Assembly (NCBI GenBank): GCA_040954595.2
Contig: CM082591.2
Span: 11,053,309-11,117,308, forward strand
Length of the DNA: 64,000 bases
Direction: 5' to 3'
Source: Balanoglossus misakiensis
Taxonomy: Eukaryota > Animalia > Hemichordata
The notes under the pieces are model-generated. The model was given only the letters and a program-made list of their open reading frames with translations, was not told the DNA's origin and did not search any database. Each line of letters begins with the position of its first letter. The first letter of the stretch is position 1. This document shows, in pieces, positions 7,201 to 34,969 of the stretch. The position numbers were made by a program, and so were the translations under genes.

Positions 7201-7773
7201 TTTTGCACAATTCTTTTATTTAACCCTCCAGGTATGGAAGCTCACCTGATCAATCGTATAGAATGTGACCAGGGGTTCTCTCCAATGGAGGTCGCTCATA
7301 TTCACACGTCACTTCCGGGCCAGGGAACGTACAGCACTCAATATTTCCAGTATGCAGCCAGTATTTATTCCACAAATATAGACACACATGGGGAACGATT
7401 ACAAAGAAAACCCCGTCGTACAAACAAAATTGCAGTAAATATTTGAAGTTCAACACTAAATTCCTTGTTCACGAAAAATGTAATTATAATTATAATATTC
7501 TAATTCTAATTATAATATGTAATAGCAAAAAGCAATATAATCGAATTATTTGAGATTTGGAGGGAATCTCACACCATACGAGGCAGGGGACCCGACTGCA
7601 TTAATCGACCAACTGTACTGTCTACGAGCTGGCCTCACGATTTTTATCCGAGGTTTTGGCCAACATAACACTATAAACCAGAAATTGACCAATCCGCTAC
7701 AACTTTTCATGTGACTTTAGCATCGCCGCTTTGTTTTGTTTCTTGCTATCCTGAGTCATATTTAGATACCCCT
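4269..7773 (-). repeat. Right arm of the giant inverted duplication
   Basis: Near-identical reverse complement of 1-3868 with scattered SNPs and 1-bp indels. It lacks 361 bp (2642-3002) of the left arm. A 400-bp non-palindromic spacer lies at 3869-4268. Confidence 0.95.
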
Positions 7774-10430: not shown

Positions 10431-11402
10431 ACGAGTGGGCATGAAACAGGGGAAGTATTTTTCTATTATTGCTCTACCATTTTATATTTGTATAGTAATT
10501 AAGCAAAAAATAGTGTAGGTTAAGATTTTCTTATGCATAAGGAAACCTCATAACAGTGGTCCCCTGATTAAGTGTTAGTAAGTAATAATGGTAATCTGAC
10601 TTGGAGCATTATAAAAGGAATAAAAACAGTAGGGGGGGGGGACTGGGTTATTCATGATGGTAGCTGCTGAATGTCTGAATATTCTGCAAACATAATATTT
10701 TTAGAAATTATATTTCATCCAAATTGAATGCTGTATAGCCAATTATTGGTCAGACACAATTGTATTGAGAAAAAAGTTAGAAATAACCAAAATTACAAGT
10801 TTAAAACCCTGAGATGTGTAGGTCTTTCTAATGATTCTAGTGCACTGCATCTAATAGTACACAAATGAAAAATAAGAAATTTTACAAATAGTTATTAATG
10901 CAAGAAATAAATTAGGCTTAAACAAAGTGAGTGCAATAAATAAACAAACACAATGAATTTCTGTGTCATAAATTGTGCTTTATCATGGTGTAAAGCATTG
11001 TCCTCCCGTTGTCTAATTAAAATTTGATCAATTGCATTGTGTAACTTGTCTTAAATTAAAATAAATAAACCGACTGGGATAACCTCTTATAAAGAGTATA
11101 GTCTTGCTTAAACATATCTGGTCCGTTTATTTTTATACTTTTGTGCTGCTGAGTGGTACACTGACACACATCCTCGAAAATATGCCAGAAAACTTTTGTA
11201 TAAAATACCAATTTTGTTGTTCGCATAACATCTAAGCCACTTGTAAATGACAATGCCTAAGTTATTGTCCACATGTAAACGAGAGTAAATGTACTCCATA
11301 TGTAATTTAACTTTTGTAATCATGTAGGTAATTACTGTGTGTGCACCACAGTAAATATGTAGTCTAATCTTTGCAACCCAGTATACCGGTCACTGCTGGG
11401 GA

Positions 11403-13117
11403 ATGACAATTATAATAATTATGATGATGGCGATGGTGATGATAATTACACGAATGATGATTATAATGATGATGATAGTGGATAATGATTATAGTAATGA
11501 TAGTGTTGGTGGTGATAATGGTGATGATGGTGTTAATGATGATAATGATGACTTTGGTTTTAATTACAATGATGATAATGATGATGATAATAATAACTGA
11601 TTATAACAATGGTGATAATAATGTTAGTAATAATGATGGTGTTGATGGTGGTGGTGATAATGATGACTTTTGTTATAATAACAGTGATGATAGTAATAAT
11701 AATGATGGTAGTGCTGCTGATGATGATGATGATGATGATGATAACTTGTTTTAATTATGGTGATGATAATAATAGTAATAATGATGGTATTGATGATGGT
11801 GTTAGTGATAATGATAATAATGATGACATTGGTTTTAATAAAGCTGACGATGATGATTTTAATTATCATAGGGATAATGACAATAAAGATAATGGTAATA
11901 ATGATGATGATGGTGGTGATAATGATGACTTTGGTTATAAAAAAGTGATTATGATGGTAATGATTTTGGTTATAACAACAGTGATAATCATACCTAATAG
12001 TGATGATGGTGATGGTAACTAGTTATTATAATGGTGATAATGGTGATGTTATAATAAGGATGATGATGGTGGTGATGAAGGTGATAATACTGATGGTAAT
12101 GATGAAAATGATGATAGTGGTGATAATGACTTAATTGTTAATTATGGTGATGATGATGATGATTATAATTACAGTGGTTATAATGACAATAATGATGATG
12201 GTAATGGGGATGATAATTATGATGATGTTGTGATAATGATACTTATGAATTGGTAAAAAAAACAGTGATGATGATTATAATATTGATGGTAGTGAGGATG
12301 GTGGTGATGGTGATGATAATGAATACTATTTATAATTACAGTGTTAATGATGATGTTAGTGATGATGGTGGTAATGATGATGATAATAATGATAACTGCT
12401 TATAAAACCTGTGATGATAATGATAATATGATGATAGTGATAATGATGGTGGTGGTCGTGATAACGATGACTTTGGTTTTAATTACAGTGATTATCATGA
12501 TGATTACAAGTATAGTGGGGATGATCATGTAATAATGATGATGACAATAATGATGGTAATGATGAAAATGATGATAGTGGTGATAATGACTTAATTGTTA
12601 ATTATGGTGATGATGATGATGATGATTATATTTACAGTGGTTATAATGACAATAATGATGATGGTAATGGGGATGATAATTATGATGATGTTGTGATAAT
12701 GATACTTATGAATTGGTAAAAAAACAGTGATGATGATTTTAATATTGATGATAGTGATCATGGTGGTGATGGTGATGGTGATGATGATAAAGAATATTAT
12801 TTATAATTACAGTGTAAATTATGATGGTAGTGATGCTGGTGGTAATGATGATGATAATAATAATAGCTGCGTATAAAAAATGATAATGATAATATGATGA
12901 TGGTGATAATGATGGTGGTGGTGGTGGTGATAATGATGACTTTGGTTTTAATTACAGTGATCATAATGATGATAACAATCATAGTGGTGATGGTGATGAC
13001 TATAATAATGATGGTAATTATGATAATAATGATGGCGGTGATAATGATTATAATGACTTTGGCTTTAATTACAGTGATCATAATGATGATAAATATAGTG
13101 ATGATGATGACGACGAC

Positions 13118-13157
<40 letters not shown>

Positions 13158-13560
13158 GTGGTGATGACAATAATGATGATAGTAATTATGATAATAATGA
13201 TGGTGGTGATAATGATGACTGCTTGTAATAACTTTGATGATAATGATAATATGCTGATGGTTGTAATGATGGTGGTGGTGATAATGATGTCTTTGGTTAT
13301 AATAACGGTGATAATGATGATGGTGATGATGATGATGATGATGATGATGATAATGATGGTGATAATAATGATGTTGGTGGTGGTGGTGGTGATAATGATG
13401 ACTTTGGTTTTAATTACAGTAATCATAATGATGATAACAATCATAGTGATGATGGTGATGAATATAATAATGATGGTAATTATGATAATAATGATGGCGG
13501 TGATAATGATTATAATGACTTTGGCTTTAATTACAGCGATCATAATGATGATAAAAATAG

Positions 13561-13604
<44 letters not shown>

Positions 13605-14177
13605 GTGATAATGACAATAATGATGATGGTAATGGTAATGATAATTATTATGTGGTAATAATGATGATACCTATAACTTTGGTAATAAAAACAGTGATGA
13701 TGATTATAATATTGATGGTAGTGATGATGGTGGTGATGATGATGATGATAATGAATACTATTTAAACTAACAGTAATGATGATCGTAGTAGTGATGATGG
13801 TGTTGGTGATGATGATGATGATAATGATAACTGCTTATAATAACTGTGATGATAATGATAATATGGTGATGGTGATAATGATGGTGGTGAAAATGATGAC
13901 TTTGGTTATAATTACAGTGATGATGGTGATGACAATAATGATGATAGTAATTATGATAATAATGATGGTGGTGATAATGATGGTGGTGAAAATGATGACT
14001 TTGGTTATAATTACAGTGATGATGGTGATGACAATAATGATGATAGTAATTATGATAATAATGATGGTGGTGATAATGATGACTGCTTATTATAACTTTG
14101 ATGATAATGATAATATGCTGATGGTGGTAATGATGGTGGTGGTGATAATGATGACTTTGGTTATAATAACGGTGATA

Positions 14178-14211
<34 letters not shown>

Positions 14212-14330
14212 CTTTTTAAAATACTGGTGATGATGGTGATAATGATGGTGGTGGTGGTGGTGATCATTATAATAATGACTTTGGTTGTAATTATGGTGAT
14301 GATAATGATGGTAGTGATGATTATAATGAT
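11403..14330. repeat. Degenerate (GAT/AAT/GGT)n trinucleotide low-complexity tract with internal block duplications
   Basis: Runs of gatgatgat, gataat and ggtgat with the recurring motif gactttggtt(a/t)taattacagtgat. ORFs here are poly-M/I/D/H artefacts. Confidence 0.92.
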
Positions 14331-15439: not shown

Positions 15440-18400
15440 CACATAAACCTTCTGTCACGAACTATGTTTCTCTGTGAAATGTTTTTAAATGAAAACATTG
15501 AGATCCAATACAGCAAATGAAATTGAAAGCTTACAGGTATTGGATGAAATCAATAAGTGAAACATTAGATTCTTGGTTGTACCAATGATTGCTATGTCTA
15601 ATGAATAAATGCAGAAGTAAAGTTATATACATGTCTGGTAAAACAATATTTAAAATAGAAGTGTATTATTTTTTATTGATTGCACAGGGGAAGGAACTGA
15701 AGATGATGTCCGCCAGCTGAGATCCTGCTGAGATGCCTGTGCTTCAATGATGCCATGGATGAGAATGCAAGCCCTCCACAGATGCCTGGATGGCATTTCA
15801 GAAAGTAAGATTCACCTTCTAAAGGTACAAAATGCATTATATTGTGGAACACTATTTCAAAACATGGCTATGTTTCTGTGCAAAATGTATTCAAATAAAG
15901 ACATTGAGATCCAATACAGCCAATGAAATAGAAAGCATACAGAGTTTTGCTGCAATCTATGAGTGAAGCATTCGATTCTTGGTTGTGCCAATCATTCCTT
16001 TGTCTAAGGAATATAATGCAGAAGTAAACGTATTTATACATCTCATAAATCAGTAATTATTATAGAAATGTACTGGTATTAGTTTTCATTGATTGCACAG
16101 GTCAGAGAACTGAAGATGATGTCCACCAGCTAAGATCCTGCTGAGATGCCTGTACCTAAATGATGCCATGGATGAGAATGCAAGTCCACTACAGATGTCT
16201 GGATGTCATTTCAGAAAGTAAGATGCACGTTTAGGTCGAGAATGCATTATATTGTTGAAAACTATTTCCAAACATGGCTATGTTTCTGTACAGGTTACAG
16301 GTATTGGATGCTGTCTATTAGTGTAAAGCATTCAATTCTTGATTGTACCAATTATGATGGCCATGTCCAATGAATGCATTCAGAAGTAAAGTTATTTAAA
16401 TGTGTCGTAACACAATATTTAAAATAGAAATATATCAGTTTTCATTGATTGCAGAGGACAAGGAACTGAAGATGGGATCCACCAGCTGGGATCCTGCAGA
16501 GATGCCTGTGCCTCAATGATACCTGGATGCCATTTCAGAAAGTAAGATGCACCTTCTGAAGGTACAAAATGCTTTACATTGTGGAAAATTATTGTGAAAC
16601 AGGGCTGTGTTTCTGTACGAAATGTGCTCAAATGAAAACATGGAGATCTAATACAGGCAATGAAATGGAAAGCTTACAGGTTTTGGATGCAATCTGTGAG
16701 TGAAGCTTTTGATTCTTGGTTGTACCAATGATTGCAATGTCTAAGGAATATAATGCATAATAAACTTATATATATAGATACCGGTATATATCACGTAAAA
16801 CAGTAATTAATATAGAAATGTATTAGTTTTCATTGATTGCAGAGGACAAGGAATTGAAGATGATGTCCACCAGCTGAGATCCTGCTGAGATGCTTGTGCC
16901 ATGGATGAGAATGCAAGCCCATAACAGGTGCCTGGATGCCATTTCAGAAAGTAAGATGCACCTTCTAAAGGTAGAGAATGCATTATATTGTGGAAAACTA
17001 TTTCAAAACATGGCTTTGTTTCTGTACGAAATGAGTGGAAATAAAAACATTGAGATAAAATACTGTCAATGAAATGGAAAGATTACAGGTATTAGATGCA
17101 ATCAAAAAGTGAAACACTCTATTCCTGGTTTTGCCAATTATAATCATTGCTATGCCTGAGGAATATAATGCAGAAGTAAACTTATTTACATGTCTCGTAA
17201 AACAATAATTAAAATGGTATTGTATCAGTTTTCATTGATTGCACAGGTCAGAGAACTGAAGATGATGTCGACCAGCTAAGATCCTGCTTAGATGCCTGTA
17301 CCTCAATGATGCCAATGGATGAGAATGCAAGCCCTCCAAAGATGCCTGGATGCCATTTCGGAAAGTAAGATTCACCTTCTCAAGGTATAACATGCATTAT
17401 ATTGTGGAAAACTATTGTGGAACATGGCTATGTTTTTGTTTGAAATGTAAGCAAATAAAGACATGGAGATCCAATATAGCCAATGAAATGGAAAGCTTAC
17501 AGGTAATGTATGCAATCCATGAGTGAATCATTTGATTCGAGGTTTTACCAATTATTGCTATGTCTAATAAATAAATGCAGAAGTAAACTTATTTTCATAT
17601 CTCGTAACACAATTTTTAAAATAGAAATGTATCAGTTTACATTGATTGCACAGGTCAGAGAACTGAAGATGATGTTCAACTGCTGAGATCCTGCTGAGAT
17701 GCCTGTGCTTCAATGATGCCATGGATGAGAATGCAAGCCCTCCACAGATGTCTGGATGCCATTTCAGAAAGTAAGATGCACCTTCTAAAGGTAGAGAATG
17801 TATTACATTTTATAAACATGGCTATTTTTCTGTAGAAAATGCGTTGAAATAGAGACATTGAGATCCAATACAGGCACTGAAATAGAAAGCTTGGAGCATT
17901 CCATTCTTGGTTGTACCAATTACAATTGCCATGTCTAATGAATAAATGCAGTTGTACCAATTACAATTGCCATGTCTAATGAATAAATGCAGTTGTACCA
18001 ATTGCAATTGCCACGTCTAATGAATAAATGCAGTTGTACCAATTACAATTGCCACGTCTAATGAATAAATGCAGAAGTAAAGTTATTAACATGTCTCGTA
18101 ACAAATCATTTAAAATAGAAATGTATTATTTTTTATTGATTGAAGAGGACAAGGAACTGAAGATGATGTCCACCAACTGCGATCCTGCAGAGATGCCTGT
18201 ACCTCAATGATACCATGGATGAGAATGCAAGTCCACTACAGATGTCTGGATGCCATTTCAGAAAGTAAGATGCACCTACTAAAGGTATACATTACATTGT
18301 GGAAAACTATTTCAAAACAGGGCTATATTTCTGTACATAATGTGTGGAAATAAAGACATTGAAATCCAATACAGCCAATGAAATTTAAGCATACAGGGAT

Positions 18401-19130
18401 TGGATGCAATCTATGAGTGGAGCATTCAGTTCTTTTTTGTACCAATTATGATTGCCATGTCTAATGAATAAACGCAGAAGTAAAGTTATTTATATGTCTG
18501 GTAACACAATATTTAAAATGGAAATTAAAATTAATTTTTATTTATTTCACTGGACAAGGAACTTGAGATGATGTCCACCAGCTGAGATCCTGCAAAGATG
18601 CCTGTGCCTGAATGATGCCATGGATGAGAATGCAAGCCCATAACAGGTGCCTGGATGCCATTTCAGAAAGTAAGATTCACATTCTCAAGGTACAAAATGC
18701 ATTATATTGTGGAAAACTATTGTGGAACATGGCTATGTTTCTGTATGAAATGTAAGCAAATAAAGACATGGAGATCCAATATAGCCAATGAAATGGAAAG
18801 CTTACAGGTATTAATCCTATCCATGAGTGAATCATTTGATTCGAGGTTTTACCAATTATTGTTATTTATAATAAATAAATGCAGAAGTAAACTTATTTTC
18901 ATATCTTGTAACACAATATTTAAAATAGAAATGTATCAGTTTACATTGATTGCACAGGTCAAGGAACTGAAGATGATGTCCTACTGCTGAGATCCTGCTG
19001 AGATGCCTCTATGCTTCAATGATGCCATGGATGAGAATGCCCTCCAAAGATGCCTGGATGCCATTTCGGAAAGTAAGATTCACCTTCTCAAGGTACAAAA
19101 TGCTTTACATTGTGGAAAATTATTTTTTGC
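15440..19130 (+). repeat. Diverged ~400-bp tandem repeat, about 9 copies
   Basis: Anchor aactgaagatgatgtc recurs near 15695, 16109, 16464, 16853, 17254, 17661, 18155, 18559 and 18965. One copy has an internal ~41-bp amplification at 17911-18070. Confidence 0.9.
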
Positions 19131-20656
19131 TAGTTTTCCAATTCTTAATTTTCAATTACTTACAAACACACAACACTTTGATAAATATTGTTTCATATGG
19201 ACTCCCTTCTTGTTGCCCACAAAATAAATGCTTTTTTCAAAGTTGATATTCAAATGAGATAAAAAAGTCCCTGTTGAGAGTGTGTTAAAATAGATAGTTA
19301 TATCCCATTATTATGATTAAACCTCTATCATCAGTTTTCTCCAGCATATTTCAGTATGGATGATGCAATCTGGTCTATTGATAATTTGATAATTCACTAT
19401 TCGAAGAAGGCAAAGAAACTGTAAAGTACAGAACCTATCATAAGAAAATTTTCTAAAAGTAGCCCCAAATTAGCTATCTTTCCTCTGAGTCACTTTTTGC
19501 CCAAGTCCTTGAGTGGTGTTTTTACCATAATAAATGTGAGAGTTTTGACAATAAGGTAAGTTTAAGGATGAGATCAATTCAGCTGGAACACTGAGAGCTA
19601 AAGAGGAGCAACTCACAGAAGCCATCAATTTCTTTATTGGGATGGAGCAGACATGGACACATTTTTGTTTCTGCTGTGTGAAAGTTAACGACTCTTTGTT
19701 GCTGTGACAAATCAATACAAGGTAAGAGTAATGTCCTCTTTCTGTTTATAGGGGAGGAGAGGATACATGCGTGAATTCAAAGACCAGTGCATCAGATGCA
19801 GGGGGAAATTCCTCAGACAAGATGATTTTATATTCGTGGACTTAAACCAACATTGTTTTATTTCATCATCATTTCAAGAAAAGAACTTCTCCCATGTCTT
19901 AGAATAGAGCATTGATAAATCCCTAAGTTATATGATCTGTATTCAAAATGTAATATTGTGATTTTTCTGTATGTAATTGTGTCAGACAGAGAGGAGAGGG
20001 AGAACAGGTTCAAATTAAATTGCAATGTGTATATTTTGGCATGGCAACACTTCTTCAAATTTGATAGCAAAAAAGGAAATTTACTAACAACAATAGTCCT
20101 AAATTATCACTGTGATTTGTTTAGCCTAGCCTGAAGGCTGTTGGATCCTATAGACAAAATAACCATTGCGCATAACTAAGCTGCACGTAAACTAACACGA
20201 AATGCACTGGATACAGCAGCCTTCAGGTCATTACCACTTAGCTTTTCAGCGCGTAAATAAACCCACTAATATAGCAGTTAATATAACTGAGCTAAATGGT
20301 ATACAAAAAGAGAATACAGCATAATTCCTGTATTGGTACAGATCTTCAACCAGTTACGTGAGGAAAGCAAACATGCCCAATAAAGAGCAAACCACCATTG
20401 CATATTATTAATGTTTGACTTTGATAAACTGTATTTGGCATATGCTTGACTTGCCTAAACCACCATTGTATATTGTTTGACTTGGCTCTCCCTCTCTTTA
20501 TACATAGACTAGATTTCTATTGTTACATTATTGTAATTGATTTAGGCATAATTTACTAGTATTGTGCATTTTGAAAGTACAATGTAGAAGTATTATAGGT
20601 TTATGATGGCCATGTTTTCGTGATTTATATTGAAGTATGAACTATATCATACACAG

Positions 20657-21222
20657 TATGGGGTGAGAACACCGCCAAAAATAGCTGATGTCTTTATTTG
20701 GTAGTTTTCTCATCATTATTATGCTATTATGTCATTATTTGGCCATTACCTTGGCCATTATTATGCCGTTATTTGGTTCTTTGGCCGTTATTATGTCATT
20801 TTTCAGTACTGATGTCTTTATTTGGAAGTTTTCTCATCATCATTATGCTATTATGTCATTATTTGGCCATTATTTGGTTCTTTGGTATTTATGTCGTGGT
20901 CTCGACATTACCTCGACCATTACCTCGGCCATTATTTGGTTCGCTCGACATTACCTCGGTCATTATTATGCCGTTATTTGGTTCTTTGGCCGTTATTATG
21001 TCATTTTTCAGTACTGATGTCTTTATTTGGAAGTTTTCTCATCATCATTATGCTATTATGTCATTATTTGGCCATTATTTGGTTCTTTGGTATTTATGTC
21101 GTGGTCTCGACATTACCTCGACCATTACCTCGGCCATTATTTGGTTCGCTCGACATTATCTGACCTACTTTATTATTTGAACTCTTGCCCGGTACCCAGA
21201 ATTCATTGCACAAAATGGCGAC
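20657..21222 (+). repeat. Left terminal inverted repeat (566 bp) with an internal 205-bp duplication and short iterons
   Basis: Reverse complement of 34366-34931, with identical 160/113/109-aa mirror ORFs. Internal period is 205 bp (20822 vs 21027). Built from ccattatttgg, cattacctcg and ttattatg motifs. Confidence 0.96.
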
Positions 21223-21229
21223 GGTATGA
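21211..21229 (+). promoter_or_regulatory. CAAAATGGCG (YY1/Kozak-like) motif and 4-codon uORF MATV* at the inner end of the left TIR
   Basis: caaaATGGCGACGGTATGA has its ATG at 21215, 93 nt upstream of the ligase ATG at 21308. Confidence 0.55.
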
Positions 21230-21307
21230 AAGTTTCGCAGGCCGTGGCCGACGACAGTCTTGGAAACAGCACGCGTGGTGGGTAAACAGTGAAGGCTGAA
21301 ATGAACT

Positions 21308-24300
21308 ATGGCAGACAATAGACTCGTAGAAGCGGTTAGGGCCTGTCGGGATGCGATAAATAGTGCGGCCACACTCCTTGAGAATGTTAATACGCATCGT
21401 GATAGCGCCCATAATGTGGCAACTGTTGACAACAACAGCAGTGTTGGTCAAGCTGAGCTAAACATCGATCGACCACCAAGAAGCAGAAGCAGTGATATTG
21501 TTCGTGAATTCCACGACAATTTTGCCAGAAATGCCGTAACCGGAGCGGGACGTCGGCGGAGCCATCGTCCGAGATTTAGATCTCGCAGCGAGCAGCGAGT
21601 AGATAGTAGTAGTAATAATAGAGGCAGATCCACAGTATCACCAACTTGGACTCGTGTATGGGTGTGCGTGGAGAGTACCAAGTGTGAGTGGTGTCCAACT
21701 CCGAAGCAGCGGTCCGATTTGTCCAAAGTTGGACTAGGTGAGCGGAGAATTTCGATACCTATTGGTAGTACAGCTACCGAGGTTCATGACTTGCTCCTTG
21801 ACGAATATCCAAAATTGAGCGAAGGTGGTGGCTATGAGATATGTCGTGCATACTTAGGAAGCAGACGATTAGTTGTAATACCTTGTCCACCCGAGGGGTA
21901 CACACAAATGTGTTTAAACACTGAGGCTGGGCAAGCTAAGCTGTATATACGCCCTTTACAAAACGACCTCGAAGGAACACCAGTAATGCCAATTACTACA
22001 CCATCAGATATGGCCAGTACAATTTCGGTGAGTATTTTGTGTTTCTTTTCATGGCTATACTAATATGCTATGCATGCCATAAACCTGCAGCAGTTGCTGG
22101 GACTCCAATAAGGTTTCTTTGATGTCATTTTTACAACTTAATGTAAAAGTTTGCTTGTAAATTTTGAGACCACCTATTATTGCAGATACCAGTGTTGTAA
22201 CACATGTTTATACATGTTGTTACATAGTTACATCTGGTAATCAACACCGTGATAAGATCTCACTAATTACACAGAGGCAACTGACAGGCAGGCATGTGTC
22301 TGGAGTTTGTTGTAGTGTTTATTACTAGTAGTTTTGTCTTTGAGAACATACAGCTAGTAGGCAATATTTGAAACAAGTTCAGAACATTTAGGAACAAATT
22401 ACCTAACCTAAACTACAAACCTAACAATATCTGGAACAATCTCATCGTCAAATATTAGGTTGTTTTCACTGTAAAGTTTTTTCATTTTGCAAAAGTTATA
22501 ATGTAAACAATTTCTCTGCTATTTTAAATGTTGAAATGGTTTTGTTTGAAATGCACTTAATTATATTTTATAGGCTATAAATAATGCTCCCAGGGAAATG
22601 TGCAGTAAGTGTAATGTACAGATTCCATTTTCCCAGCTAAGGGACCATATTGATGCATGCAGAGGACTTGAGGTGGTAGAACTAGAAGATGATGAGGATA
22701 GTGACAGGTAGGCATATTTAATATACACATTTTAAAAGAGAAAGGATGGTGTAAATTATGAAGAGTCCATCGATATATGTATATTGAAAGACATTTACAA
22801 GTGTCTTTTCAATTAATTTGTAATTTGCATATGTTTTTTTGCAATTAGAGTTATATATCAAATCAGTCTCAAATTTGACGACACCTACTACAGATGTTGA
22901 TCATACAAAGCTATGATGGCGCTGTAGGACGTCTGGCAGTGTCTATTCATGTGGTTGTACCAAATTTAAGGAAACTTACTTGTCCAAGCGAAGCAAAGGA
23001 ATCTGGCGTCTTTACACCATGGATAGGGGTCAACCCCTGTTTGGACACAATTTGTACTCAGAACCTACCAATCATGGGTCGAGCAAAACATCCGCTACAA
23101 ATTATAAATTTTACAATAAAATGTTGAAGGTTATTGTAGATTACTAGTAATAGTTTGATAAATTACAATCATTGACATTTCAGAGATCTGATTCCAGTTC
23201 AAATAAGCAGTCCTGAAAGAACTACACACAGAGCAAGGCAATCAAGTACCAGAGCAAGGCAATCAAGTACACTGAGAGGGTTAGTTTTCCACCTTTATTT
23301 TTGGTAAAGCTTGTTCGATTGAAAATGTAATATCAGTGGAATAAAATCAGGAAATAAGTTTTAATAACAGTTGCTTTTAGCAATTATGGAATTGGGCAAA
23401 ATCCATATGCATGTAATGTGTGCATGTGTATTACTTTTTACAAATAACTGATCTGTTATGAATCAGCTGAATAAGTTACTATGTAGTCACCTATTGAATT
23501 ATCAATGTGCAGAGGACATTTTGTAGCTAATCTTGTTACATGAATTCAGCTCCAAGAAAGCTTACGGTTTTTGTTAAATCTTGCAGGATTTTCACTTTAT
23601 TTTACTGCAGTCACTCATTTAGAAGAGGTAGATAATACTTTCTTTACAATTGAGAAGTGACAGAAATAACAGACCATCAGTTTGTGACTGTTTCTCAACT
23701 ACATGTACTCAACATGCAGACAGCCAGAGAATTTCTTAGTTCTCACTTGTTTGATATTGTGGAATCCTGGATGAATTTCCTTGAGGCACGATACTCTGTC
23801 CTGTAAAAACTTGCTAACTTCGCCTTCCATTACTGGTGGAGACTTCTTTGCCCATAGGGAAAATAACACCAGGTTGTACATCAATAATGACAGTGTTTCA
23901 TCCAGGTCGGCATCACCAGGGGGGGATTGCCCCCCTTTGCCAGAATATTTGAGGGGATTCTACTCCGGTAAGGGGGGACTTCAACAAATTCTTTTGAAAA
24001 AGAATATACTGTTGTCTATCTCCAAGGTGTGACTGACATCATTTCATGATAGGTTGGCTGCCCCTTGGCAAATTGCTAGGGGGTGCCAACAGAGGGGGAA
24101 TTGCCCCATTGCCCTGTCTAGCTGAAACACTTTTTTGAGCACCTTGTGGCATAGACTGTTGTGTCTGTGTGTGTGTGTGTGTGTCCGCGTGTACATCCAT
24201 CTGAAAGAGGGTAAAACCAAAGTTTTTAACTACATGATTTTAACCACATTTCTTGGTTTTAACTCTAAAATCTAGCGTAAGTTCTCTTTTAAAATTTGGA

Positions 24301-27300
24301 CCAGGTGTCCATTTAAGTCTTACTTTGATTTATTCTAGAAATCATTCTGGTCAAAACCAAGACTTGACTTCTGCAAGACATTGCAATATGAACACTAGAA
24401 GTGCTAATTCACTGATGATAGCTCTTGACAGGTCAGTATTTCTAAATCAGTACTGTAGTCAGTGTAGATTATTTGCAAAGATAGACAATACAATAACTGT
24501 ATTCTGTCTTTTTCTATTCTCTCTTTATCTCCATTGTAGACTTTGTCATACCAGAGCTATTCATATTACTGATTATACATTGGTGTCAACATTATATGTT
24601 CGACTTCTTGCAGGCAAGGTATATTGGGTGGTTCTCTATCGAGGGTAACTGATCCATACAGTATGAGAGCGATAACTTATAGCGCAGCTCCAATAGAAAT
24701 ACTCTATACAGAGACTGGGATTTATTGTATCCTGGATCATTAGATAAGTTATTTTAACCAAAGACACACCTGCCATTTATGTAAGTGTATGTAAATTATG
24801 CAAATATAGTTACCATAATGGTAAGTGAGTGACATTCCATTGTCCTACCTTTGATAATGTAACTTTTACGTTACTTCCAATATGATAGGAGTTATTCACA
24901 GATATTGGATAGTACTGGTAGTGTTGATAGTCAAGAAGAAAATGAAGAAGAAACCATAGAAGCTAACAATGCTCCACTGTACCCAAGGTATGACATTTGC
25001 ACGTGTGTACTCGCTTCCTCTGTGATGCTTTGTCATTCTTTTTTTTTTCACATAATAAGTCCATTTACTTTACTTCATTCAAATACTGATTAATATTGTT
25101 GGCTTTTAAGTAGTTGTGAGATTTAGCCATTTTACCACATTCAAAACTATGTGAACTTACCAGATTCAAAGTTTTTGTTTTGTTTTAATTGTCATGTTCA
25201 GCTTATTTGCTGGCAGGTCGAGAAAGTACACAAGGTCTGTCAAAATCTTGTTAAACACATAAAACAACAACCCAGACCTCCTATCACAGCGGTGAAAATT
25301 CTATAAGCACTTCAAATTCTTGATATATTAATCTAATACTTGCAAATAAAAAGGACATAAGCTGAATTTGTTGCAAAGTTTTTCATACTTTTTAGTCTCC
25401 ATCAGATGAAACTGTGACATACAGATTAGGTTTTGTGTGCGTACATGCTTTGACTGCAGAACGTTTTCTTAGACGTGGCTGTACAGAATTTGGCTCATGG
25501 ACAGTGTAACATGTCATTCATATGTGTGGCATTTTACTTGCAATCTGATCCAAGATGGTTGACTAGTCACCAGTTTAATTTTGTAATGTCCAGAGCAATT
25601 CAATTTTTTTGGGAGATATGATCCAATATTGCTTCCACTCAGGCATTTTGCTCGTGTTTTTGTATGTGCAGAGCAAATATCCAGACATGCTCCTATGCTG
25701 ATTGTTTCAAATATGGTACAAAGGTATTGCATTATTTTGTATATGATTTTTGTGTGCAATGAGATCAAATATAGGAAACAGTCAGCCAGTTTGTGTGATT
25801 GTTTGTTTTTATTTTTGTTCGTTCAAAGGACAAAGCACCATGACTGAATATTACAATGACACCAGAGGGTCAGTCTTTACAAATCTCAACAATTGAAAAA
25901 CAGAAAATGGAAAAAATTGCAACTCATTGCACTCTAAATTATAAAAAATTGGATAAACCATTGCAGATTGAATCACTATAATCTTGTTGTCTTTTTGATT
26001 GTCATATAGATGTAGTCTGGAGTATGCTGTCCAAGTACTAAATCACCAGGTGGAACAAATGCATTTGGATTACAACAAAGGAATTGGTAGTGATTATGAT
26101 GATGATGATTATCAACGCATTAACATTTTAAGGTCGAATTTTTGGCAAACAGCTGTAAGGGCCATAAATCGATCTGATTTCCACCCAAACAAGCCGATGA
26201 AAGTGTCATTTATTGGTGAAAGTGCGGTTGATGATGGGGGACCAAGAAGGGAATTTTGCAGTTTATTGATTAATGCTGTAAAAACATCTGGTGTTCTTGA
26301 AGGCAAGGAAAACAACCTAAGCTTTTCCCATGATTTGCACTATCTGGCTGAAAGAAGGTATTTCACCGCAGGCAAGATGGTTGCTATATCTCTTTGCCAT
26401 GGTGGTCCAGGACTACACTGCCTGAGCCAAGCAACATTCCAATACATGGCAAAAGGCTGTGTTGCAGAAATGAAAGACGTTGATGAAATTCCTGGTTATG
26501 AGATACAGCTGATAGCGAAGCAGGTGAGATTTTTGGCTCGCATATGCCATATGCATATATGGCAATAGGCTTGAATAAATGCCTGTCTGCATGTATGTAT
26601 GTATGTATGTAAAATGTGTGTGTGTGTGTGTGTGTGTGTGTATTTCAACTGTCCAAAAATTGTGAAAACTAAAAAAAACCCTCTGAAAATGCTGACCAGA
26701 TTGCCTTTGTATATAGTTTCTATGTACCTTAGACAAAATCTATGAAGATTTGTTCATATTGTGTCGACATCTGTATTTTTTTATTTATTTGAATATTTTT
26801 CTGACTTCTGGGCAAAAATGATACTTAAACTATTAGTATTACTGTGCAATCCTGCTTGCCATTTTGTTAAGAGTTAGCATGAAGGCAAAGACCTATGAAT
26901 TTACATATGCGCATGCCTTTCCTTGGTGATTGTTGTCAGAGTGACTGGATTTTGGGTCATTTTGGTCAAAAATTGTATTTTAAGTATTACTGAGATATGG
27001 TATAGGCAGTTTTGTTGGAGACACCTTTCAGTGACATACATGTGTAATACCTTTGCATTTGCAATATTCATTCTCAAAGGAAAAGGATTTTTTTTGGTAT
27101 TTGTTTACGTTGATACTGCCTCCACTGCATAGGTATTGAGATATTCTTCAACATGGTTGACAATTTTGTTTATTAAGGTAAACTCTGTGTAAATAAAGTA
27201 CTTTAATTATAACCCTGTATCCTATTTATACAGATCCAGTCCAGTAACACAAATGAGGACCTCAGAATTGCTGTATCTCGTATTGGCGAAGAAAGTGTTG

Positions 27301-28952
27301 CCAATATAACAGGCTGTACGGATCCCATCGATACAATCACATTAGACATGAAAGATGCAATTCTTCAAAATCTAATAGCACATCACTGCGTATATAAAGC
27401 AATATCCGGGATAAACCAATTCTCAGATGGGATGAACATCTTGAATGTAAAGGAATTGATAAAGGCAGAACCTGGTATGTATACAGTCACTGATTAAATT
27501 GCACAGTTAATTTTCAAGATGTGGTGCCTAATTGCAAAAAATTGTCAATATGCAAATAAGCAATTAACTTGCATGCCACTGCCAACTGTCTCACAGCATT
27601 GTTAAATCTTAGAAATAGTATGATTATAATTTCTGCAAATTTTGCGAAATTTGTTCCAGTTATTGAAATATAGCTAGGTTATTCTCTTCAGGGTGCGGCA
27701 CAATCTCCACACAGAGACTAACCTAGCTAGGGAGTTTGACTAATAGCCACTATTCTCTGCCAGAGGCAAATTTAAATATTCCAGACCGGATCTTCTTTCA
27801 GTTCTGCGCGTGCTCAGTTGGTTCAATAAATATGGAAGCCATCTTGAATTGTTAATTTACATTTATGTAACCCAGAGCAGGATCTATGTTTTGCAAGTGT
27901 TCACAGAATCGAGGATCGACTTTGAAACTGGTGCATTTTTTAGTTCTTATATTTTTTGGTTCAAAATATTAAACATAAAAAAACAGGAAATGTATATTAT
28001 AGAAAACGCGCAACACCCAAAAAGTGGGTGTGAATTGTCGTCTGTGGCAGAGATTGGTGGGGGGTAGTGGTCGGACTCCCTAGCTAGGTTAGAATTATCC
28101 ACCCCAAGTGTTTGCGTGGAGATTGGGTGAGGCATTGGATTCACTTCACATGCAACACTTTCCAGATGAACCGTTTGATGAAAACAATACATGTAAACTT
28201 TGAATCTATCTAGGTAATATGGTGGTTCCAATGGAGGGATCTCTCTGTTAGGGGCTATCTATAATAAGACCAAGTTTTTAAAAATTAATCTGAACAGATA
28301 CACAGAGGTATATTTACGCAATCTTTTTTTATTCTTTTAATTAGGGTCTATGGAGCACTTCATGTGTTTCAGTAAGAAGTTGTATCCATCAGCTGATTAC
28401 TTTAAAGCTATGCATGTGGAATATAGTCCAAGTGGGTCGAATAACAGAACACAAGAAGAAACTACTATGTACTATTGGTTTGAATTCATCGATGAATGTG
28501 CTAAAGGTCAGTAACCACGTATTAAGTGCCAAAAAGATTAAAAATACAAAATGCAGTAAATTATTTCCCCTTTAAATAACTTTCTGCAGAAAAGGGTCTT
28601 ATGGGTTGAATGCCCACTTTATATATAACTCATGTGCATTCTCCAATTTTCATTTATTTTATGTCTTACAGGGAATCAGAAAGCAAGTCTGTATGCTGGG
28701 AGTGAAAATGAATCTACTGAAGTTGTCATAACACTTGCTGACATTCTGTCATTCTTCACAGGCGCACATTCAATACCCCCTTTAGGTTTCAAAGAAAGGC
28801 TGTCCATAGAATTTATCACAAATTCCACTGTTCCCACTTCCAATACATGTGCCAATACTCTGCGATTGCCAAGATATTTCAGCTGCATAGATGAATTCTC
28901 AGAGAGACTAACTTTTGCTCTAGCAAATAGTCGTGATTTTGGTAATGTCTAG
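21308..28952 (+). CDS. Transposon-borne HECT-domain E3 ubiquitin ligase (G2E3-like HECT) with UBZ4 zinc finger and SIM; about 748 aa, 8 exons
   Basis: Proposed exons: 21308-22027, 22574-22707, 23184-23279, 24889-24987, 26010-26523, 27234-27474, 28345-28506, 28672-28952. All introns are GT-AG and phase-compatible; total 2247 nt with no internal stop. HECT motifs: VSFIGESAVDDGGPRREF, YFTAGKMVAISLCHGGPG, NQFSDGM, ILSFFTGAHSIPPLGF, PTSNTCANTLRLP (catalytic Cys 28848-28850) and terminal DFGNV* with the -4 Phe. Small middle exons 3-4 are less certain. Confidence 0.85.
23891..24132. mobile_element. Degenerate hAT-like MITE in a ligase intron
   Basis: cagtgtttca at 23891 and tagctgaaacact at 24119-24131, with internal gggggattgcccc motifs. 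No clear TSD. Confidence 0.35.
26010..26523 (+). CDS. HECT domain N-lobe exon
   Basis: INILRSNFWQTAVRAI...KVSFIGESAVDDGGPRREFCSLL; acceptor atatag, donor gtgaga. Confidence 0.9.
27700..28125. mobile_element. Degenerate inverted-repeat element (MITE-like) in a ligase intron
   Basis: caatctccac...taacctagctagggagt near 27700-27737 is mirrored by actccctagctaggtta...gtggagattg near 28075-28125. Confidence 0.4.
28672..28952 (+). CDS. HECT domain C-lobe, final exon with catalytic Cys
   Basis: ITLADILSFFTGAHSIPPLGF...PTSNTCANTLRLP...DFGNV*; acceptor ttacag. Confidence 0.9.
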
Positions 28953-29689
28953 TAGATACAGAGTGCCAGTTGAATAGAAAGGACAGAAATGATCTAGCAA
29001 GCAATGAACTCACATTTAGGTGTGATCTATGGAATGTTATATCACAGTTGAATATTCTGAACTTAATTGCAAAGTTATATTGCAGAGGTGTTCCTCTATA
29101 TTGTCAATTGAGCATACAGTGTATTCTATTGATATACTGGGATACACTATACACGTTTAGCTCTGCTGTCAACAACGCAGAGCTTATCAGATAGGTGGAT
29201 TGTCCGTCTGTCAACAATTGACTTCTTCTCAGAAACCACAGTTCATACAGGCCGCTTGTTTAGAAGACTGTTACAAGATATCTCTGTTTTCGTGCATTAG
29301 CAAAAGACATTTTGTATTTTACATTGTATCTGTACTGTAATTCACTTGTTAGTACCACCAGAAATAGTCTGGAACAAGGATTATATATTTGGTTCCATGC
29401 TTTGGTTGAGATCCTTAGAATATCTTTATCCTTAGAATATCTCAAAAAATCAGCAACTAGCTTCTTTCCTTGAAATTATTCATTTACATGTGTGTTCCTC
29501 TGTCCACAGATGCGCATGTATGTATGCAAAGGGTATTCTGCCGCAAGAATATTGTCAAGAAACTTTGCACTTGCAATCTGGTATTGTACTATGTTTGTCT
29601 TAAGTACCGTCCAAGTCTATAGTAGCTAAGCAACATTATTGCTATTTTTAGAGTTGTGTTATGGACAATGTACCATGACATGTCATACA

Positions 29690-29860
29690 CCAATCTGATT
29701 AAAATTTGATGTAGAGATGGGGCGATCTTTCGCGCTCCGTATATATGGTCTTTTCTTCCGGGGTCCATTCCTCAGTATGGTCGGACCCCGGAAGAAAAGA
29801 CCATATATACGGAGCGTGAAAGATCACCCCATCTCTTCATCGGAGTTTAATCAGATTGGC
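29690..29860. mobile_element. ~170-bp palindromic MITE/hairpin between the convergent genes
   Basis: ~77-bp arms (ccaatctgattaaa...cttccggggtcc / ggaccccggaag...tttaatcagattgg) around a 16-nt loop, flanked by the direct repeat cataca(c). Confidence 0.75.
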
Positions 29861-30099
29861 CATACACATGCACTGTGTTTCGAGTAATCCAATCCAAGGC
29901 AGTTGATTTCTCCCAAGATTTTTTTTTGGGGGGGTGGGGAGGGGGTTATAAGTCCAATGGGCCTGGCCAGTGGCTTTCAAACACATAGTTGTGTTGTGCT
30001 TTAGTTATAAAGTTTTTAGTTACCAAGTAGTTAGACTCTTTTTAGGGGCTTCATGGTTCAGTGGCTAGATGGTGAGTGGGAGACCAAGCATGGCCATGA

Positions 30100-30170
30100 T
30101 GATGTGTCCTTGAACAAGGCACTTAACTTCTCATTGCTTCTTCCCCTACCCAGGAGTAATGGGTACCTCA
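30100..30170 (+). mobile_element. CORE-SINE-like fragment
   Basis: gtgtccttgaacaaggcacttaacttctc...cccagg...taatgggtacc resembles the CORE/MIR-type SINE central domain. Confidence 0.45.
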
Positions 30171-31160
30171 TCCTGTTATTGCAAATTGAATTTGCCTGTT
30201 GAATGATTGTTGAATAAAAAAATAAACAAAACATGTTCTTTTGTTAGTTACTTCATCTTGTCTTTATTCAAAGGGAACAGAGGTATGACTGGTTTTGTTG
30301 TAACTGTCTCTGTTGTGCTCAGTCAGAAAAAGCCTTCTTTGGGAACCATACACCACAAACTCCTCTAAAGTAGCATTAAAAAAATTGATAACCTTTATAG
30401 GGCTTCAATTTTATTGAAATCATAGGAATGGTGCTCTTTGACCTATACATAAACTTGAATAATGGAGTGAGGTGCTTTTATTTCTCTGTCCGTTGCCAAG
30501 TCTTAACCAATGTATATTGTACAAGCAATCTACGGTACATCAAAACATTCTACATATACAAGTTTTGTGACATTTTCAATAATGGTTTACAAAATATGTG
30601 ATATCAATACAGTGCCTGTAGCAAGTTTTTGAGATAAACAATATTTTCCAATCTTCATATGAAAAATAGTGACAATGACACTGTGCTCCCGTTTTCAAGA
30701 AATAGTGCATACCGTATAAAATTTTAAAGCTTTCAGTATCACTCAGACAAATAGTATCTGAGAAGATAATATTTTACCCCAAATTTAAGAAATCTCAAAA
30801 TTACAATAGAAAATTAAAATAGAAAATTCCAAATATCAGCACAAAATAAACAGATCTATATTAGCTCTTAATTGACATCTTTTTTTTCGTGGAGGGGGGA
30901 GGGAGCTCATATGCATATATACAACATAATTCAAACAAATTTCAATCAACAGTCCAGATGCATCCCTATCAATTGTTTTGTTTTTGTAGACAGACATACA
31001 CACATATAATATACATAACATGGATTCATGCATACATACATACATGTACATATGACAGACGTGTTACCCCAAAAGCTCTGCTTTGCCATAAACATATGGC
31101 AAATGGAAGACAATAAATCTTGAGGTTTACAATCTGCATAAAGACCAAAACAAGTCTTCT

Positions 31161-34100
31161 TTATTCCCTGTTTTCCAACACTCTCTTGACAAAGTTAATC
31201 ACATCTTGATACACTGATATGCCGTACATATCACCATCTCTTAATGGGTCAATGGAACCGATGAGATCGTCAAATTCATCAACTTCTAAAGGACAACAAA
31301 CTATGGGAATCTCGACTCTGGCATCTGTTGTATCTTCTGGAAGAGGTCCATCCCAGTCAATCCCATAATGCATGATTTCGTCCTTTAAAAAATATAAAAG
31401 ATTCAGTTTAAAGCACAAAAATCAAATCTGTTTCTTATTATCGTCCACTATCTGTGATTTCCATAAAAGAACACTAAGCATCATCACTATATCTCCTATT
31501 TTCCATCTTTTGACATATTATCTTTAAAGAGCAAGGGTCAGCCAGTTAAAAAGAAACAGTCGCAAAGTTTGGTTTGAGATACCATCTGCCAATTACAAAT
31601 TTTGTATGTCGCACTTATTTTCAATTCTTTTCAGTTAGGAAATGTCCCTCTGAAGATATTTTGATGTGTGAATTGTGAGAAACAAATGCTCAGCATGAGG
31701 ACTTTTGAAAGTGCATGGAACCTGCACCTGTACATACCTCAGTTCTTGGTTCAAATAGTTCTCTCATTGGTCTGTAATTTGAGCCTGCCATTTCCATAGA
31801 ACCTTGAATCCAAAGCTGTCTTGGCGATCTGCTATTTGCAGTGCTAAGTTTGTGTTGATTCCAACCTTCTTGCCAGTGCTGAAGATCTCGATTTATTCTT
31901 GGTAAATATGTAAAGTGCAGACAGAACATATCTATGTCACTTTCTATATCAAGCAGCAATTTATCTTCGAGGTAGTAAAACAGGTTGTAGTATTTAAATA
32001 AAATACCACAAAATACATCACGCCATAAACGTTCTATCCTCTGGTTGTGTACACTCTTGCCAGATATGAAACTTCCCCTTCCCGGTCCTCTAGCTGGATG
32101 ATTGAGCATAAATAGTGAAACAGATACATTTTCACCACCTTTGTCAGCTCTCACCCGAGATGGGACTCCGAATCTTTGAGTGGCATCTTCAAAACTTTCA
32201 AGAACTGTGTCAGATCTGTTGTTGTCACTGCATACAAGATAGACCACCATTCTTGAGAAACCATCCACTCCACCATGTACTACTAACTTCCATCTATGGA
32301 CAACAAATTGACAGAAATGGCTTGTCAAGTGATGTTGATACAGGTCTGAAAATGAAACCTTTACTGATAAAAATAGCATTATTGACACCACAACTCCATT
32401 TTGGTATATTGCATCCATCCATGCATCACATGCAATATCAAATTGAATGGTTACTGTACATAACTCAATCAAACATTTAATCTTCTTAGCCCCTTCTATA
32501 ATCCATGGCTATCAAATGGTCTGTCCCTTATGATGGATGTCAGACAAACTTTGGTCATTGTTGAGCTGTTAGTGAAATATGATCCTGCCTATTTAGATTG
32601 TCAGTTCATACAACTTGCTGCAATATCACAAAATACTTCGCCAGTGAATTAAATCGGGGTGTAGTGACATAAATGCAAGCTTTCTTAAAGGGACAAAGTC
32701 TCTCTCTCGCTGCCCCCTTTCCATTAATTATGTTTGATACCAGACACAGTTTATGTTAATGTACATGTGGATATATAGTGAATCAATGATCAACCACACA
32801 AAACTTCCATCCCACTTGTATGATATGAGAGTAAAACTTGCCCAAAATAAATAAATGGTAAAGAACGATTATTCATTTTGGCGAGTTTTTTCACTCTCCT
32901 GTCTATAAGGAGGATGGAAGTTGTGTGTGGTTGAACGTTCATTCACTATATATCCACATGTAGAATAACAAACGGTGTTTTGTATCAAATATAATTAATG
33001 GAAAAAAAAGGGCAGCGAGAGAGAGACTTTGTCCCTTTAATTTCTAAAAACATTTCATCTTATACTGTCAGGACATTGTCCTCCCATTTAATCAGAATTG
33101 GTACACTCAAGTGTGAAATACATCAATTTTATTTGGACTCAATTACCAAAACAAACCCAACAAGATACCTTTAGCATTAAATTTATACATTTTTTATCAG
33201 ATGATAGATAAGTCTGATGGCAAACATTGCCCGGAACCTGCAAACCGAAGTTCAAAGCAACTGGACAAGCAATTTCTGAAAAAGAGACCCAAAAATTTGA
33301 CCCCAAAATCAACCGAATGAGAATAATATTTTTATCATAATCTTTTACACATCACAATAAGAACAGAGCATCCTACAAACCATTTTTTAAGATAGGACAG
33401 GCAATTTCTGAGAAATGGACTTTTTAATAACATCGCAAAAATTGCCCTAAAATACAATATAAATATTTTCAACATAATTATGCTAATATCATCAAGTATT
33501 TTACCCGAAAAATGTTTTGTGAATTGTTATGTGATTGCTGAATTAGCTGGGATAGAGCACCAACATTATCCTATAAATATATTTCAGCCAGCCGTTTTTT
33601 AGAACACATTTGTCCATACGCATGGAGACCTTCGGTTTGAGTATTTCACAGGCTTGACCAATAAGTACACTAACCTACCTTATCAGTTTATGGTTTCCAT
33701 CTATGTGCCACAATGCATTAGGGCACGGAACATTGTACTGCCGCCTACGTATTGCAGTTCTTCTCCTACTGACAACTCCACTGTGATCTACACGTCGAAG
33801 GCTTTCTCTGACTCGAAAAATTGCCACACGTTTACCTTCGGCAAGTAACAGTCCATGTAGCCTTTTCATTCCCGTGTTTGGAAGACGATTGGTTATGTCA
33901 GTAACCATTCCATCAAGCTCTTCATCAGACAACTCCGCATATGATTCCGCAATTGAAATGCCATACTCGTACATACGTCTTTGTATGGTTCGTATCGAAA
34001 CGCCAAGCATTTTTGCCACTGCTGGTACGCTAAATCTTTCTGCTACAAAGAACTGCAACTGTTCTTTCGGGATATCGAAGCGAGGTCTACCACGCTCCCC

Positions 34101-34373
34101 GGAACTCACTTTGTATGAACGATACGGCCAACAGACGCTTGGACCAATGTTCTGTGACTGATTATCAAGAAAATCTATCAAAGTTGTCATAGCAAGACTG
34201 AGTTGTGCAAACACGTTGTCTGGGACATCAGTATGGATGCATAATTGGACCAGTTCTTCTTCTTGTAAAACGATGTCGTCAAACACAGCTTCCAACTCAC
34301 TTGGTCTAGTTACTGACCCAAGTGCGGAAGCAATATCGTACAACCGTCTTGTTATTACTTGTACAGTCGCCAT
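31161..34373 (-). CDS. IS3EU-type DDE transposase/integrase-core protein, about 490 aa, 3 exons
   Basis: Exons 34373-33679, 32293-31738 and 31382-31161 total 1473 nt, with GT-AG introns and an in-frame join HKLIR|WKLVVHGG. N-terminal GRPR plus HTH ([16 protein letters not shown]) and a second helical domain (LSDEELD...GMKRLHGLL). Catalytic core [46 protein letters not shown] gives DD36E. Confidence 0.92.
32689..33036. mobile_element. 348-bp Kolobok-like MITE with TTAA TSD in transposase intron 1
   Basis: TTAA|agggacaaagtctctctctcgctgccc...gggcagcgagagagagactttgtccct|TTAA, imperfectly palindromic over most of its length. A related end occurs at 9155-9174. Confidence 0.8.
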
Positions 34374-34931
34374 TTTGTGCAATGAATTCTGGGTACCGGG
34401 CAAGAGTTCAAATAATAAAGTAGGTCAGATAATGTCGAGCGAACCAAATAATGGCCGAGGTAATGGTCGAGGTAATGTCGAGACCACGACATAAATACCA
34501 AAGAACCAAATAATGGCCAAATAATGACATAATAGCATAATGATGATGAGAAAACTTCCAAATAAAGACATCAGTACTGAAAAATGACATAATAACGGCC
34601 AAAGAACCAAATAACGGCATAATAATGACCGAGGTAATGTCGAGCGAACCAAATAATGGCCGAGGTAATGGTCGAGGTAATGTCGAGACCACGACATAAA
34701 TACCAAAGAACCAAATAATGGCCAAATAATGACATAATAGCATAATGATGATGAGAAAACTTCCAAATAAAGACATCAGTACTGAAAAATGACATAATAA
34801 CGGCCAAAGAACCAAATAACGGCATAATAATGGCCAAGGTAATGGCCAAATAATGACATAATAGCATAATAATGATGAGAAAACTACCAAATAAAGACAT
34901 CAGCTATTTTTGGCGGTGTTCTCACCCCATA
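34366..34931 (-). repeat. Right terminal inverted repeat (566 bp), containing the transposase start codon
   Basis: Mirror of 20657-21222 (coordinates sum to 55588). ATG at 34373-34371 on the - strand. Confidence 0.96.
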
Positions 34932-34969
34932 ACACAGTTGGAGATATTGTCATATGTGATTACTGATTA

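What the first reader, a model, noticed from the sequence alone, without database searches (positions are those of the whole stretch)
21180..21310. TIR includes the start codon: transposase start at one end, MATV* uORF at the other
Seen: the TIR ends just after CAAAATGGCGAC. On the right this ATG (34373) opens the transposase ([10 protein letters not shown]). On the left the same ATG (21215) reads M-A-T-V-stop, 93 nt before the ligase ATG. Inference: both TIRs act as the same inward-facing promoter (AAAATGGCG is YY1-like), giving co-transcription, while the uORF sets the ligase:transposase ratio at the level of translation.
Basis: partly seen in the sequence, partly recalled or inferred. Interest (0 to 1): 0.7.

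Follow-up and report, generated by a model that had tools for sequence, protein, structure and literature searches.

The report
Transposon end repeat swallowed start codon
In this intact jumping gene the two mirror-image end repeats reach into the transposase start codon, so a spare start codon reading four amino acids sits in front of the element's second gene; other families examined lack this, so it is likely a by-product of one end being copied onto the other, and a role in tuning protein levels is untested.

Summary
Observation confirmed. A 14,275-bp IS3EU DNA transposon (20657-34931, 6-bp target duplication) carries two open, convergent genes: a 490-aa transposase and a 779-aa HECT ligase. 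Its 566-bp identical TIRs include the transposase ATG; on the left that ATG reads MATV-stop, 93 nt before the ligase ATG. Interpretation partly supported. A promoter shared by both TIRs is likely (CpG-rich ends, ATG inside the TIR) and is known from maize MuDR. A tuned uORF is not supported: 0 of 14 related two-ended elements (10 families, all distant) share the transposase ATG between TIRs; the motif is a common start context (ATGGCG in 9 of 44 families); two further upstream ATGs were missed; and the ligase keeps an 85-nt leader with an E-box-like site where 4 of 8 families have CACGTG. Best reading: TIR-to-TIR copying overran into the transposase start, as described for Galileo. Open alternative: the left ATG is followed by a donor-like GTATGA that would splice M-A-T in frame to ligase exon 2. 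No RNA data were obtained. The scan noted IS3EU-plus-HECT elements, and a Merlin element with ATG-bearing ends, on other DNA before.

The parts
20651..20656 (.). left copy of 6-bp target-site duplication ACACAG
20657..21222 (+). left TIR, 566 nt, identical to the right TIR; begins TATGG
20744..21161 (+). two tandem 205-bp units inside the TIR, differing at 2 positions; both differences are present in both TIRs
21162..21222 (+). non-repetitive inner 61 nt of the TIR: inferred transposase core promoter, short leader and first 8 coding bases, copied to the left end; Inr-like matches at 21198, 21205, 21210 (weak, consensus recalled)
21215..21229 (+). uORF1 M-A-T-V-stop from the TIR ATG (context AAAATGG), in frame with the ligase
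21221..21229 (+). splice-donor-like ACG|GTATGA (GT at 21224); the matching right-end site is not donor-like
21226..21285 (+). uORF2, 19 codons, ATG overlaps the uORF1 stop
21223..21307 (+). 85-nt ligase-side leader not shared with the right end
21270..21275 (+). E-box-like CACGCG(TGG), ending 32 nt before the ligase ATG; relatives have CACGTG 15-33 nt before theirs
21301..21321 (+). uORF3, 6 codons, out of frame and overlapping the ligase ATG
21308..28952 (+). HECT ubiquitin-ligase gene, 9 inferred exons, 779 aa, no internal stop; 62% identical to Saccoglossus protein P0001
31161..34373 (-). IS3EU transposase gene (Pfam rva_4), 3 inferred exons, 490 aa, no internal stop
34366..34931 (-). right TIR, containing the transposase ATG at 34373
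34932..34937 (.). right copy of target-site duplication ACACAG

Best explanation
The 566-bp end repeats of this IS3EU transposon include the transposase start codon, and the left-hand M-A-T-V-stop is likely a by-product of repeat-to-repeat copying that ran past the repeat array and carried the transposase's inferred promoter and first codons onto the ligase end. Shown: the identity, its end point, both open genes, and the absence of this overlap in related two-ended elements. Inferred: (1) copying went from the transposase end to the ligase end by gene conversion or repair; (2) the transposase is transcribed from inside the right TIR from a CpG-rich promoter with a short leader, so the identical left TIR probably also fires inward; (3) such left transcripts would carry three upstream ATGs and give less ligase by leaky scanning and reinitiation, as a tolerated side effect; (4) the ligase probably keeps promoter elements of its own in the 85-nt leader, so some or all ligase mRNA may start after the uORF.
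For: 0 of 14 related loci with both ends share any 12-mer overlapping the transposase ATG; their TIR similarity stops 15-262 nt before it. The ligase ATG lies 83-175 nt inside the TIR in 10 such loci and 85 nt here, so the ligase leader was kept. CACGTG lies within 60 nt before the ligase ATG in 4 of 8 families (shuffle mean 0.10, 0 of 5000 reach 4); the window has CACGCG at 32 nt, against 15, 27, 32 and 33 nt. A 205-bp duplication with 2 diagnostic differences is present identically in both TIRs, so one TIR was copied from the other after it arose. TIR pairs of relatives are shorter or less alike (best segments 75-100%, 106-394 nt). The ATG is native to the transposase: homologues have an N-terminal part of the same length, while the 31 codons from 21215 to 21308 hold three stops and show no evident likeness to the Ptychodera ligase start (by eye). 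Recruitment of internal sequence, including transposase leader and coding DNA, into TIRs is described for Galileo (PMC3573991; PMC4168063) and TIR re-homogenisation for Mu (PMC10401008).
Against: All two-ended relatives are distant (33-58% identity in the matched segments); no DNA of the close, hemichordate-like clade or of other copies in this genome was available, so conservation within that clade is untested. One mismatch followed by three matches, and weak similarity beyond the TIR (p 0.03-0.07, post hoc), could mean the ATG copy is older than the last homogenisation and has persisted. The element is intact with both genes open, so the arrangement is at least compatible with activity. The E-box motif was noticed in the same loci in which it was counted, 4 of 8 families lack it, the window's site is one base off, and a further locus (L089) has it only about 200 nt upstream. 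Ligase starts in relatives were assigned by me from first ATG and N-terminal pattern.
Confidence: 0.62

Rival explanations
1. One reading: both TIRs fire equally and the four-codon uORF is kept by selection to hold ligase below transposase.
For: ATG 21215 is in a strong context and would be the first ATG after the Inr-like sites; a 4-codon uORF with 78 nt to the main ATG would allow reinitiation (established knowledge, recalled); the leader has no unusual structure (z 0.01); both genes are open.
Against: 0 of 14 related loci have the arrangement; upstream ATGs in the ligase-side segment occur in 5 of 8 families at no fixed place and are absent in 3, and also occur on the transposase side in 8 of 10 families. 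A stop this early has about 10% chance. Two more upstream ATGs complicate a clean rheostat.
Confidence: 0.13
2. The TIR ATG is not a uORF but an alternative first exon: M-A-T is spliced at ACG|GTATGA (21224) to ligase exon 2, giving a 542-aa zinc-finger plus HECT isoform without the 240-aa N-terminal part.
For: The site ranks 3rd of 65 GT sites in 21161-22040, scoring 8.0 against 8.1 for the real exon-1 donor; the same hexamer GTATGA is the inferred donor of ligase exon 5; the right-end equivalent scores -6.9; M-A-T joined to exon 2 is in phase and open for 542 aa. The TIR identity ends exactly at the base before this GT.
Against: The matrix was built from only 10 inferred donors that include a GTATGA site, so the score is partly circular; another unused site (21738) scores as high. 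In-phase joining has a 1 in 3 chance. Exon 1 is conserved in all close homologues. No reads.
Confidence: 0.1
3. The ligase is transcribed only from its own promoter in 21223-21307, so the TIR ATG is never on the ligase mRNA and is not a uORF at all (a stronger form of step 4 of the best explanation).
For: E-box-like site at the same distance as in relatives; E-boxes are enriched around sponge transcription starts (PMC4773876).
Against: The left TIR holds every element-borne base upstream of the transposase ATG, so it should fire if the right one does; Inr-like matches lie before 21215 and none between 21215 and 21308 (weak).
Confidence: 0.12
4. The extra-long perfect TIR is an assembly or polishing artefact.
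For: The window begins with a 99% identical 3.5-kb inverted repeat, a pattern that can be artefactual; no reads were checked.
Against: Clean 6-bp target duplication, unique flanks, two open spliced genes, and a ligase leader of normal length.
Confidence: 0.03

Closest known systems
[quoted passage not shown]
   Same: TA..TA (TATGG..CCATA) ends, 6-bp target duplication, rve-type (Pfam rva_4) transposase, second gene in the opposite orientation
   Different: TIR is 566 bp and covers the transposase ATG (GingerRoot TIRs are 100-150 bp); second gene is a HECT ligase, which I found in no searched paper on this superfamily
Maize MuDR (PMC3440606, PMC10401008; passages read)
   Same: two convergent genes whose promoters and transcription starts lie inside near-identical TIRs; TIRs are re-homogenised by conversion
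   Different: different transposase superfamily; TIR about 215 bp; the passages read do not report a start codon inside the TIR or a uORF; promoter activity is shown for MuDR and only inferred here
Galileo TIR extension in Drosophila (PMC3573991, PMC4168063; passages read)
   Same: internal sequence next to one TIR, including the spacer upstream of the transposase and a piece of its ORF, becomes part of both TIRs; internally repetitive long TIRs
   Different: Galileo has one gene and the coding piece recruited is the 3' end; here the 5' end lands in front of a second gene
TISU / YY1-Kozak start element (PMC2518114, PMC3177215, PMC4773876; passages read)
   Same: ATGGCG core with purines upstream, close to a possible transcription start
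   Different: 10 of 12 positions match SAASATGGCGGC; no binding or translation test; start site unknown

Membership tests
IS3EU/GingerRoot | TA..TA termini (TAYGG..CCRTA) | tested here: met
   TATGG..CCATA; definition from PMC10045372, PMC12730594
IS3EU/GingerRoot | 6-bp target-site duplication | tested here: met
   ACACAG on both sides
IS3EU/GingerRoot | IS3/IS481-like integrase-core transposase with N-terminal helix-turn-helix | tested here: met
   Pfam rva_4 E 5e-73, rve, weak HTH hits
IS3EU/GingerRoot | phylogenetic placement with Repbase IS3EU transposases | not tested
   Repbase sequences were not in hand; no tree built
MuDR-type TIR-borne paired promoters (works like, not a member) | two convergent genes inside near-identical TIRs | tested here: met
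MuDR-type TIR-borne paired promoters (works like, not a member) | transcription starts inside both TIRs | not testable with these tools
   no reads could be laid; indirect support from CpG content and ATG position
Mutator superfamily | 9-bp target duplication and MULE transposase | tested here: not met
   6-bp duplication, rva_4 transposase
TISU element | consensus SAASATGGCGGC | tested here: not met
   no exact match in the window; 10 of 12 positions match
TISU element | ATG within a very short leader after the transcription start | tested here: inconclusive
   Inr-like matches 5, 10 and 17 nt before the ATG; such matches are frequent by chance
Conserved regulatory uORF | position or presence kept across related elements | tested here: not met
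   0 of 14 distant two-ended loci; close clade not available
Conserved regulatory uORF | on the same mRNA as the main ORF and translated | not testable with these tools
   needs 5' end mapping and ribosome profiling

The most novel reading that the evidence does not exclude
One conversion event put a transposon's two genes under one promoter and one start codon, and the element uses the copied ATG: either as a four-codon uORF that damps the ubiquitin ligase, or as a three-codon first exon spliced to exon 2 that yields a ligase without its N-terminal domain. This would be gene-regulatory rewiring by TIR extension caught in an intact element.
Probability: 0.2. Interest if true: 0.6.

Novelty: new variant of a known kind. 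Interest (0 to 1): 0.27.

Why it matters
It shows how copying between end repeats can hand one transposon gene the promoter and start codon of the other in a single step. Each ingredient is known (TIR promoters in MuDR, TIR extension in Galileo), so the value is as a clean natural test case. If the copied ATG proves to be used, it would be a first handle on how IS3EU elements, whose structure and function are called largely unexplored (PMC11934779), balance transposase against their ubiquitin ligase.

Tried and rejected
No genome is held for the window, so other copies could not be compared. No RNA holder was listed for 21150-26600; no reads were laid. Three scans of viral contigs found no relative. 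Likeness of the window's upstream 40 nt to L074's transposase leader looked striking but is not significant (109 of 1000 shuffles reach it). Residual similarity beyond the TIR is borderline (p 0.03-0.07). No unusual RNA structure in the ligase leader (z 0.01). Splicing from 21224 to an acceptor that keeps the conserved first helix: no in-phase AG before 21383. Read-through from 21215 into the ligase: three in-frame TGA codons; rejected. An apparent TIR end at the ATG in L074 came from a stray 11-mer and vanished with a collinearity limit (gap 53 nt). A hold-out look for E-boxes in 6 loci was mostly uninformative: four lacked a clear ligase start, L047 had none, L089 had one about 200 nt upstream. 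PMC3903597 passages had nothing relevant. The Kojima 2019 review (PubMed 30416149) is not held and may describe IS3EU second genes. Searches for a printed case of a TIR-borne start codon acting as a transposon uORF listed none; only listings were seen. No supplements were read; Repbase entries and supplements may bear on the novelty of the HECT pairing.

Full report
What is there. Inverted repeats at 20657-21226 and 34362-34931 bound a 14,275-bp element flanked by ACACAG on both sides and ending TATGG..CCATA. The minus strand encodes a three-exon, 490-aa integrase-core transposase (Pfam rva_4, E 5e-73) and the plus strand a nine-exon, 779-aa protein with a C-terminal HECT domain; both frames are open when the inferred exons are joined. 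Ends, duplication length and transposase fit IS3EU/GingerRoot as defined in PMC10045372 and PMC12730594 (passages). The closest ligases carry Saccoglossus and Ptychodera names, so the host is probably a related marine animal (inference).

The observation. Identity between the TIRs is exact for 566 nt and ends after CAAAATGGCGAC; one mismatch and three matches follow, so both ends read M-A-T-V. On the right this is the transposase start: homologues have an N-terminal part of similar length. On the left a stop follows, 93 nt before and in frame with the ligase ATG at 21308, whose N-terminal helix aligns with close homologues.

Is the TIR a promoter? Indirectly likely. Every element-borne base upstream of the transposase ATG lies in the TIR, and CpG observed/expected is about 1.0-1.3 over the inner TIRs and first exons, against 0.34 inside the element and 0.28 in flanking DNA. 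Three Inr-like matches lie 5-17 nt before the ATG and none in the following 93 nt (consensus recalled, weak). A YY1/Kozak motif about 10 bp after the start site and E-boxes around start sites are described for sponge promoters (PMC4773876, passages), and TISU for mammals (PMC2518114, PMC3177215, passages); the site here matches TISU at 10 of 12 positions. TIR-borne promoters for two convergent genes are established for MuDR (PMC3440606, PMC10401008, passages). No transcript data were obtained.

The comparative test. Of these 94, 14 hold both ends (9 with a perfect 6-bp duplication); I grouped them into 10 families by shared N-termini, and 12 of 14 have ligase homology on the opposite strand. 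I dropped the other 80, including L002, L012, L025, L053, L069, L081, L084 and L089, whose inverted repeats were not the element's paired ends. In 0 of 14 does a 12-mer overlapping the transposase ATG recur at the other end; TIR similarity stops 15-262 nt before that ATG. In the 10 loci (8 families) where I could assign a ligase start, it lies 83-175 nt inside the TIR; here it is 85 nt. CACGTG lies within 60 nt before the ligase ATG in 4 of 8 families (0 of 5000 shuffles reach 4; motif noticed post hoc), and the window has CACGCG at a matching 32 nt. Upstream ATGs occur in 5 of 8 ligase-side and 8 of 10 transposase-side segments at no fixed position. Among 50 loci (44 families) with a plausible transposase start and at least 120 nt upstream, 9 begin ATGGCG and 5 AANATGGCG, so the YY1-like context is ordinary. 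Limit: these relatives are distant, and the close clade could not be examined at DNA level.

How it most likely arose. The TIR holds two 205-bp units that differ at two positions, and both TIRs carry the same two differences: one TIR was copied from the other after that duplication. If such copying ran about 60 nt beyond the repeat array it would carry the transposase's leader and first codons to the ligase end, where non-coding sequence soon supplies a stop (about 10% within two codons, 35% within eight). Recruitment of flanking internal sequence into TIRs is described for Galileo (PMC3573991, PMC4168063, passages). The likely consequence is inward transcription from both TIRs and, for those left transcripts, reduced ligase translation; the retained leader suggests that the ligase may also have its own start. 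Direction, mechanism and consequence are inferred.

A rival worth a cheap test. The identity ends one base before ACG|GTATGA. Scored with a matrix from the element's 10 inferred donors, this site ranks 3rd of 65 and nearly equals the real exon-1 donor, while the right-end equivalent scores -6.9; M-A-T joined to exon 2 is open for 542 aa. The score is partly circular and an unused site scores as well, so I give it 10%.

Novelty. Element type known; TIR promoters and TIR extension known from other superfamilies. I found no paper on IS3EU with a HECT gene (passages) or on a TIR-borne ATG acting as a transposon's uORF (listings only), but subscription papers, Repbase and supplements were not seen. 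Earlier notes of this scan report IS3EU-plus-HECT elements in at least 6 genomes and a Merlin element with promoter and ATG in both ends; these are unchecked leads. Verdict: real feature, a family-level variant, most likely a by-product; interest 0.27.

Noticed in passing
window 1-7773: Large inverted repeat: arms 1-2641/5135-7773 (99.4%) and 3001-3868/4269-5136 (99.8%) around a 400-nt loop, with 359 nt extra in the left arm; foldback duplication or assembly artefact.
   Followed up: no
window 32685-33040: 348-bp element in transposase intron 1 with inverted ends AGGGACAA..TTGTCCCT flanked by TTAA; looks like a Kolobok- or piggyBac-type MITE (label recalled).
   Followed up: partly
window 29690-29859: 170-bp near-perfect palindrome (77-nt arms, 92%) between the 3' ends of the two convergent genes.
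   Followed up: no
window 39883-64000: About 24 kb of a 132-bp satellite with higher-order spacing.
   Followed up: no
window 11400-14330 and 15462-19124: Degenerate TGA-triplet repeat with strong GC skew, followed by 405-414-bp tandem units.
   Followed up: no
L081-L094: Eukaryote-type IS3EU transposases, in L090 with TIRs, target duplication and a ligase partner, on contigs titled as bacterial or archaeal genome bins; probably host DNA in those bins.
   Followed up: partly
L073, L074 ligase-side leaders: CCGCCATT, the YY1-like motif in reverse orientation, lies 10-20 nt before the ligase ATG in two families.
   Followed up: no
L034 9313-13526: Each TIR contains a second, inverted copy of the terminal sequence about 200-390 nt inside.
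   Followed up: no
window 21308-22027: The 240-aa first-exon part of the ligase has no Pfam match but a conserved EGGGYEI motif and is found upstream of HECT in many related elements.
   Followed up: partly
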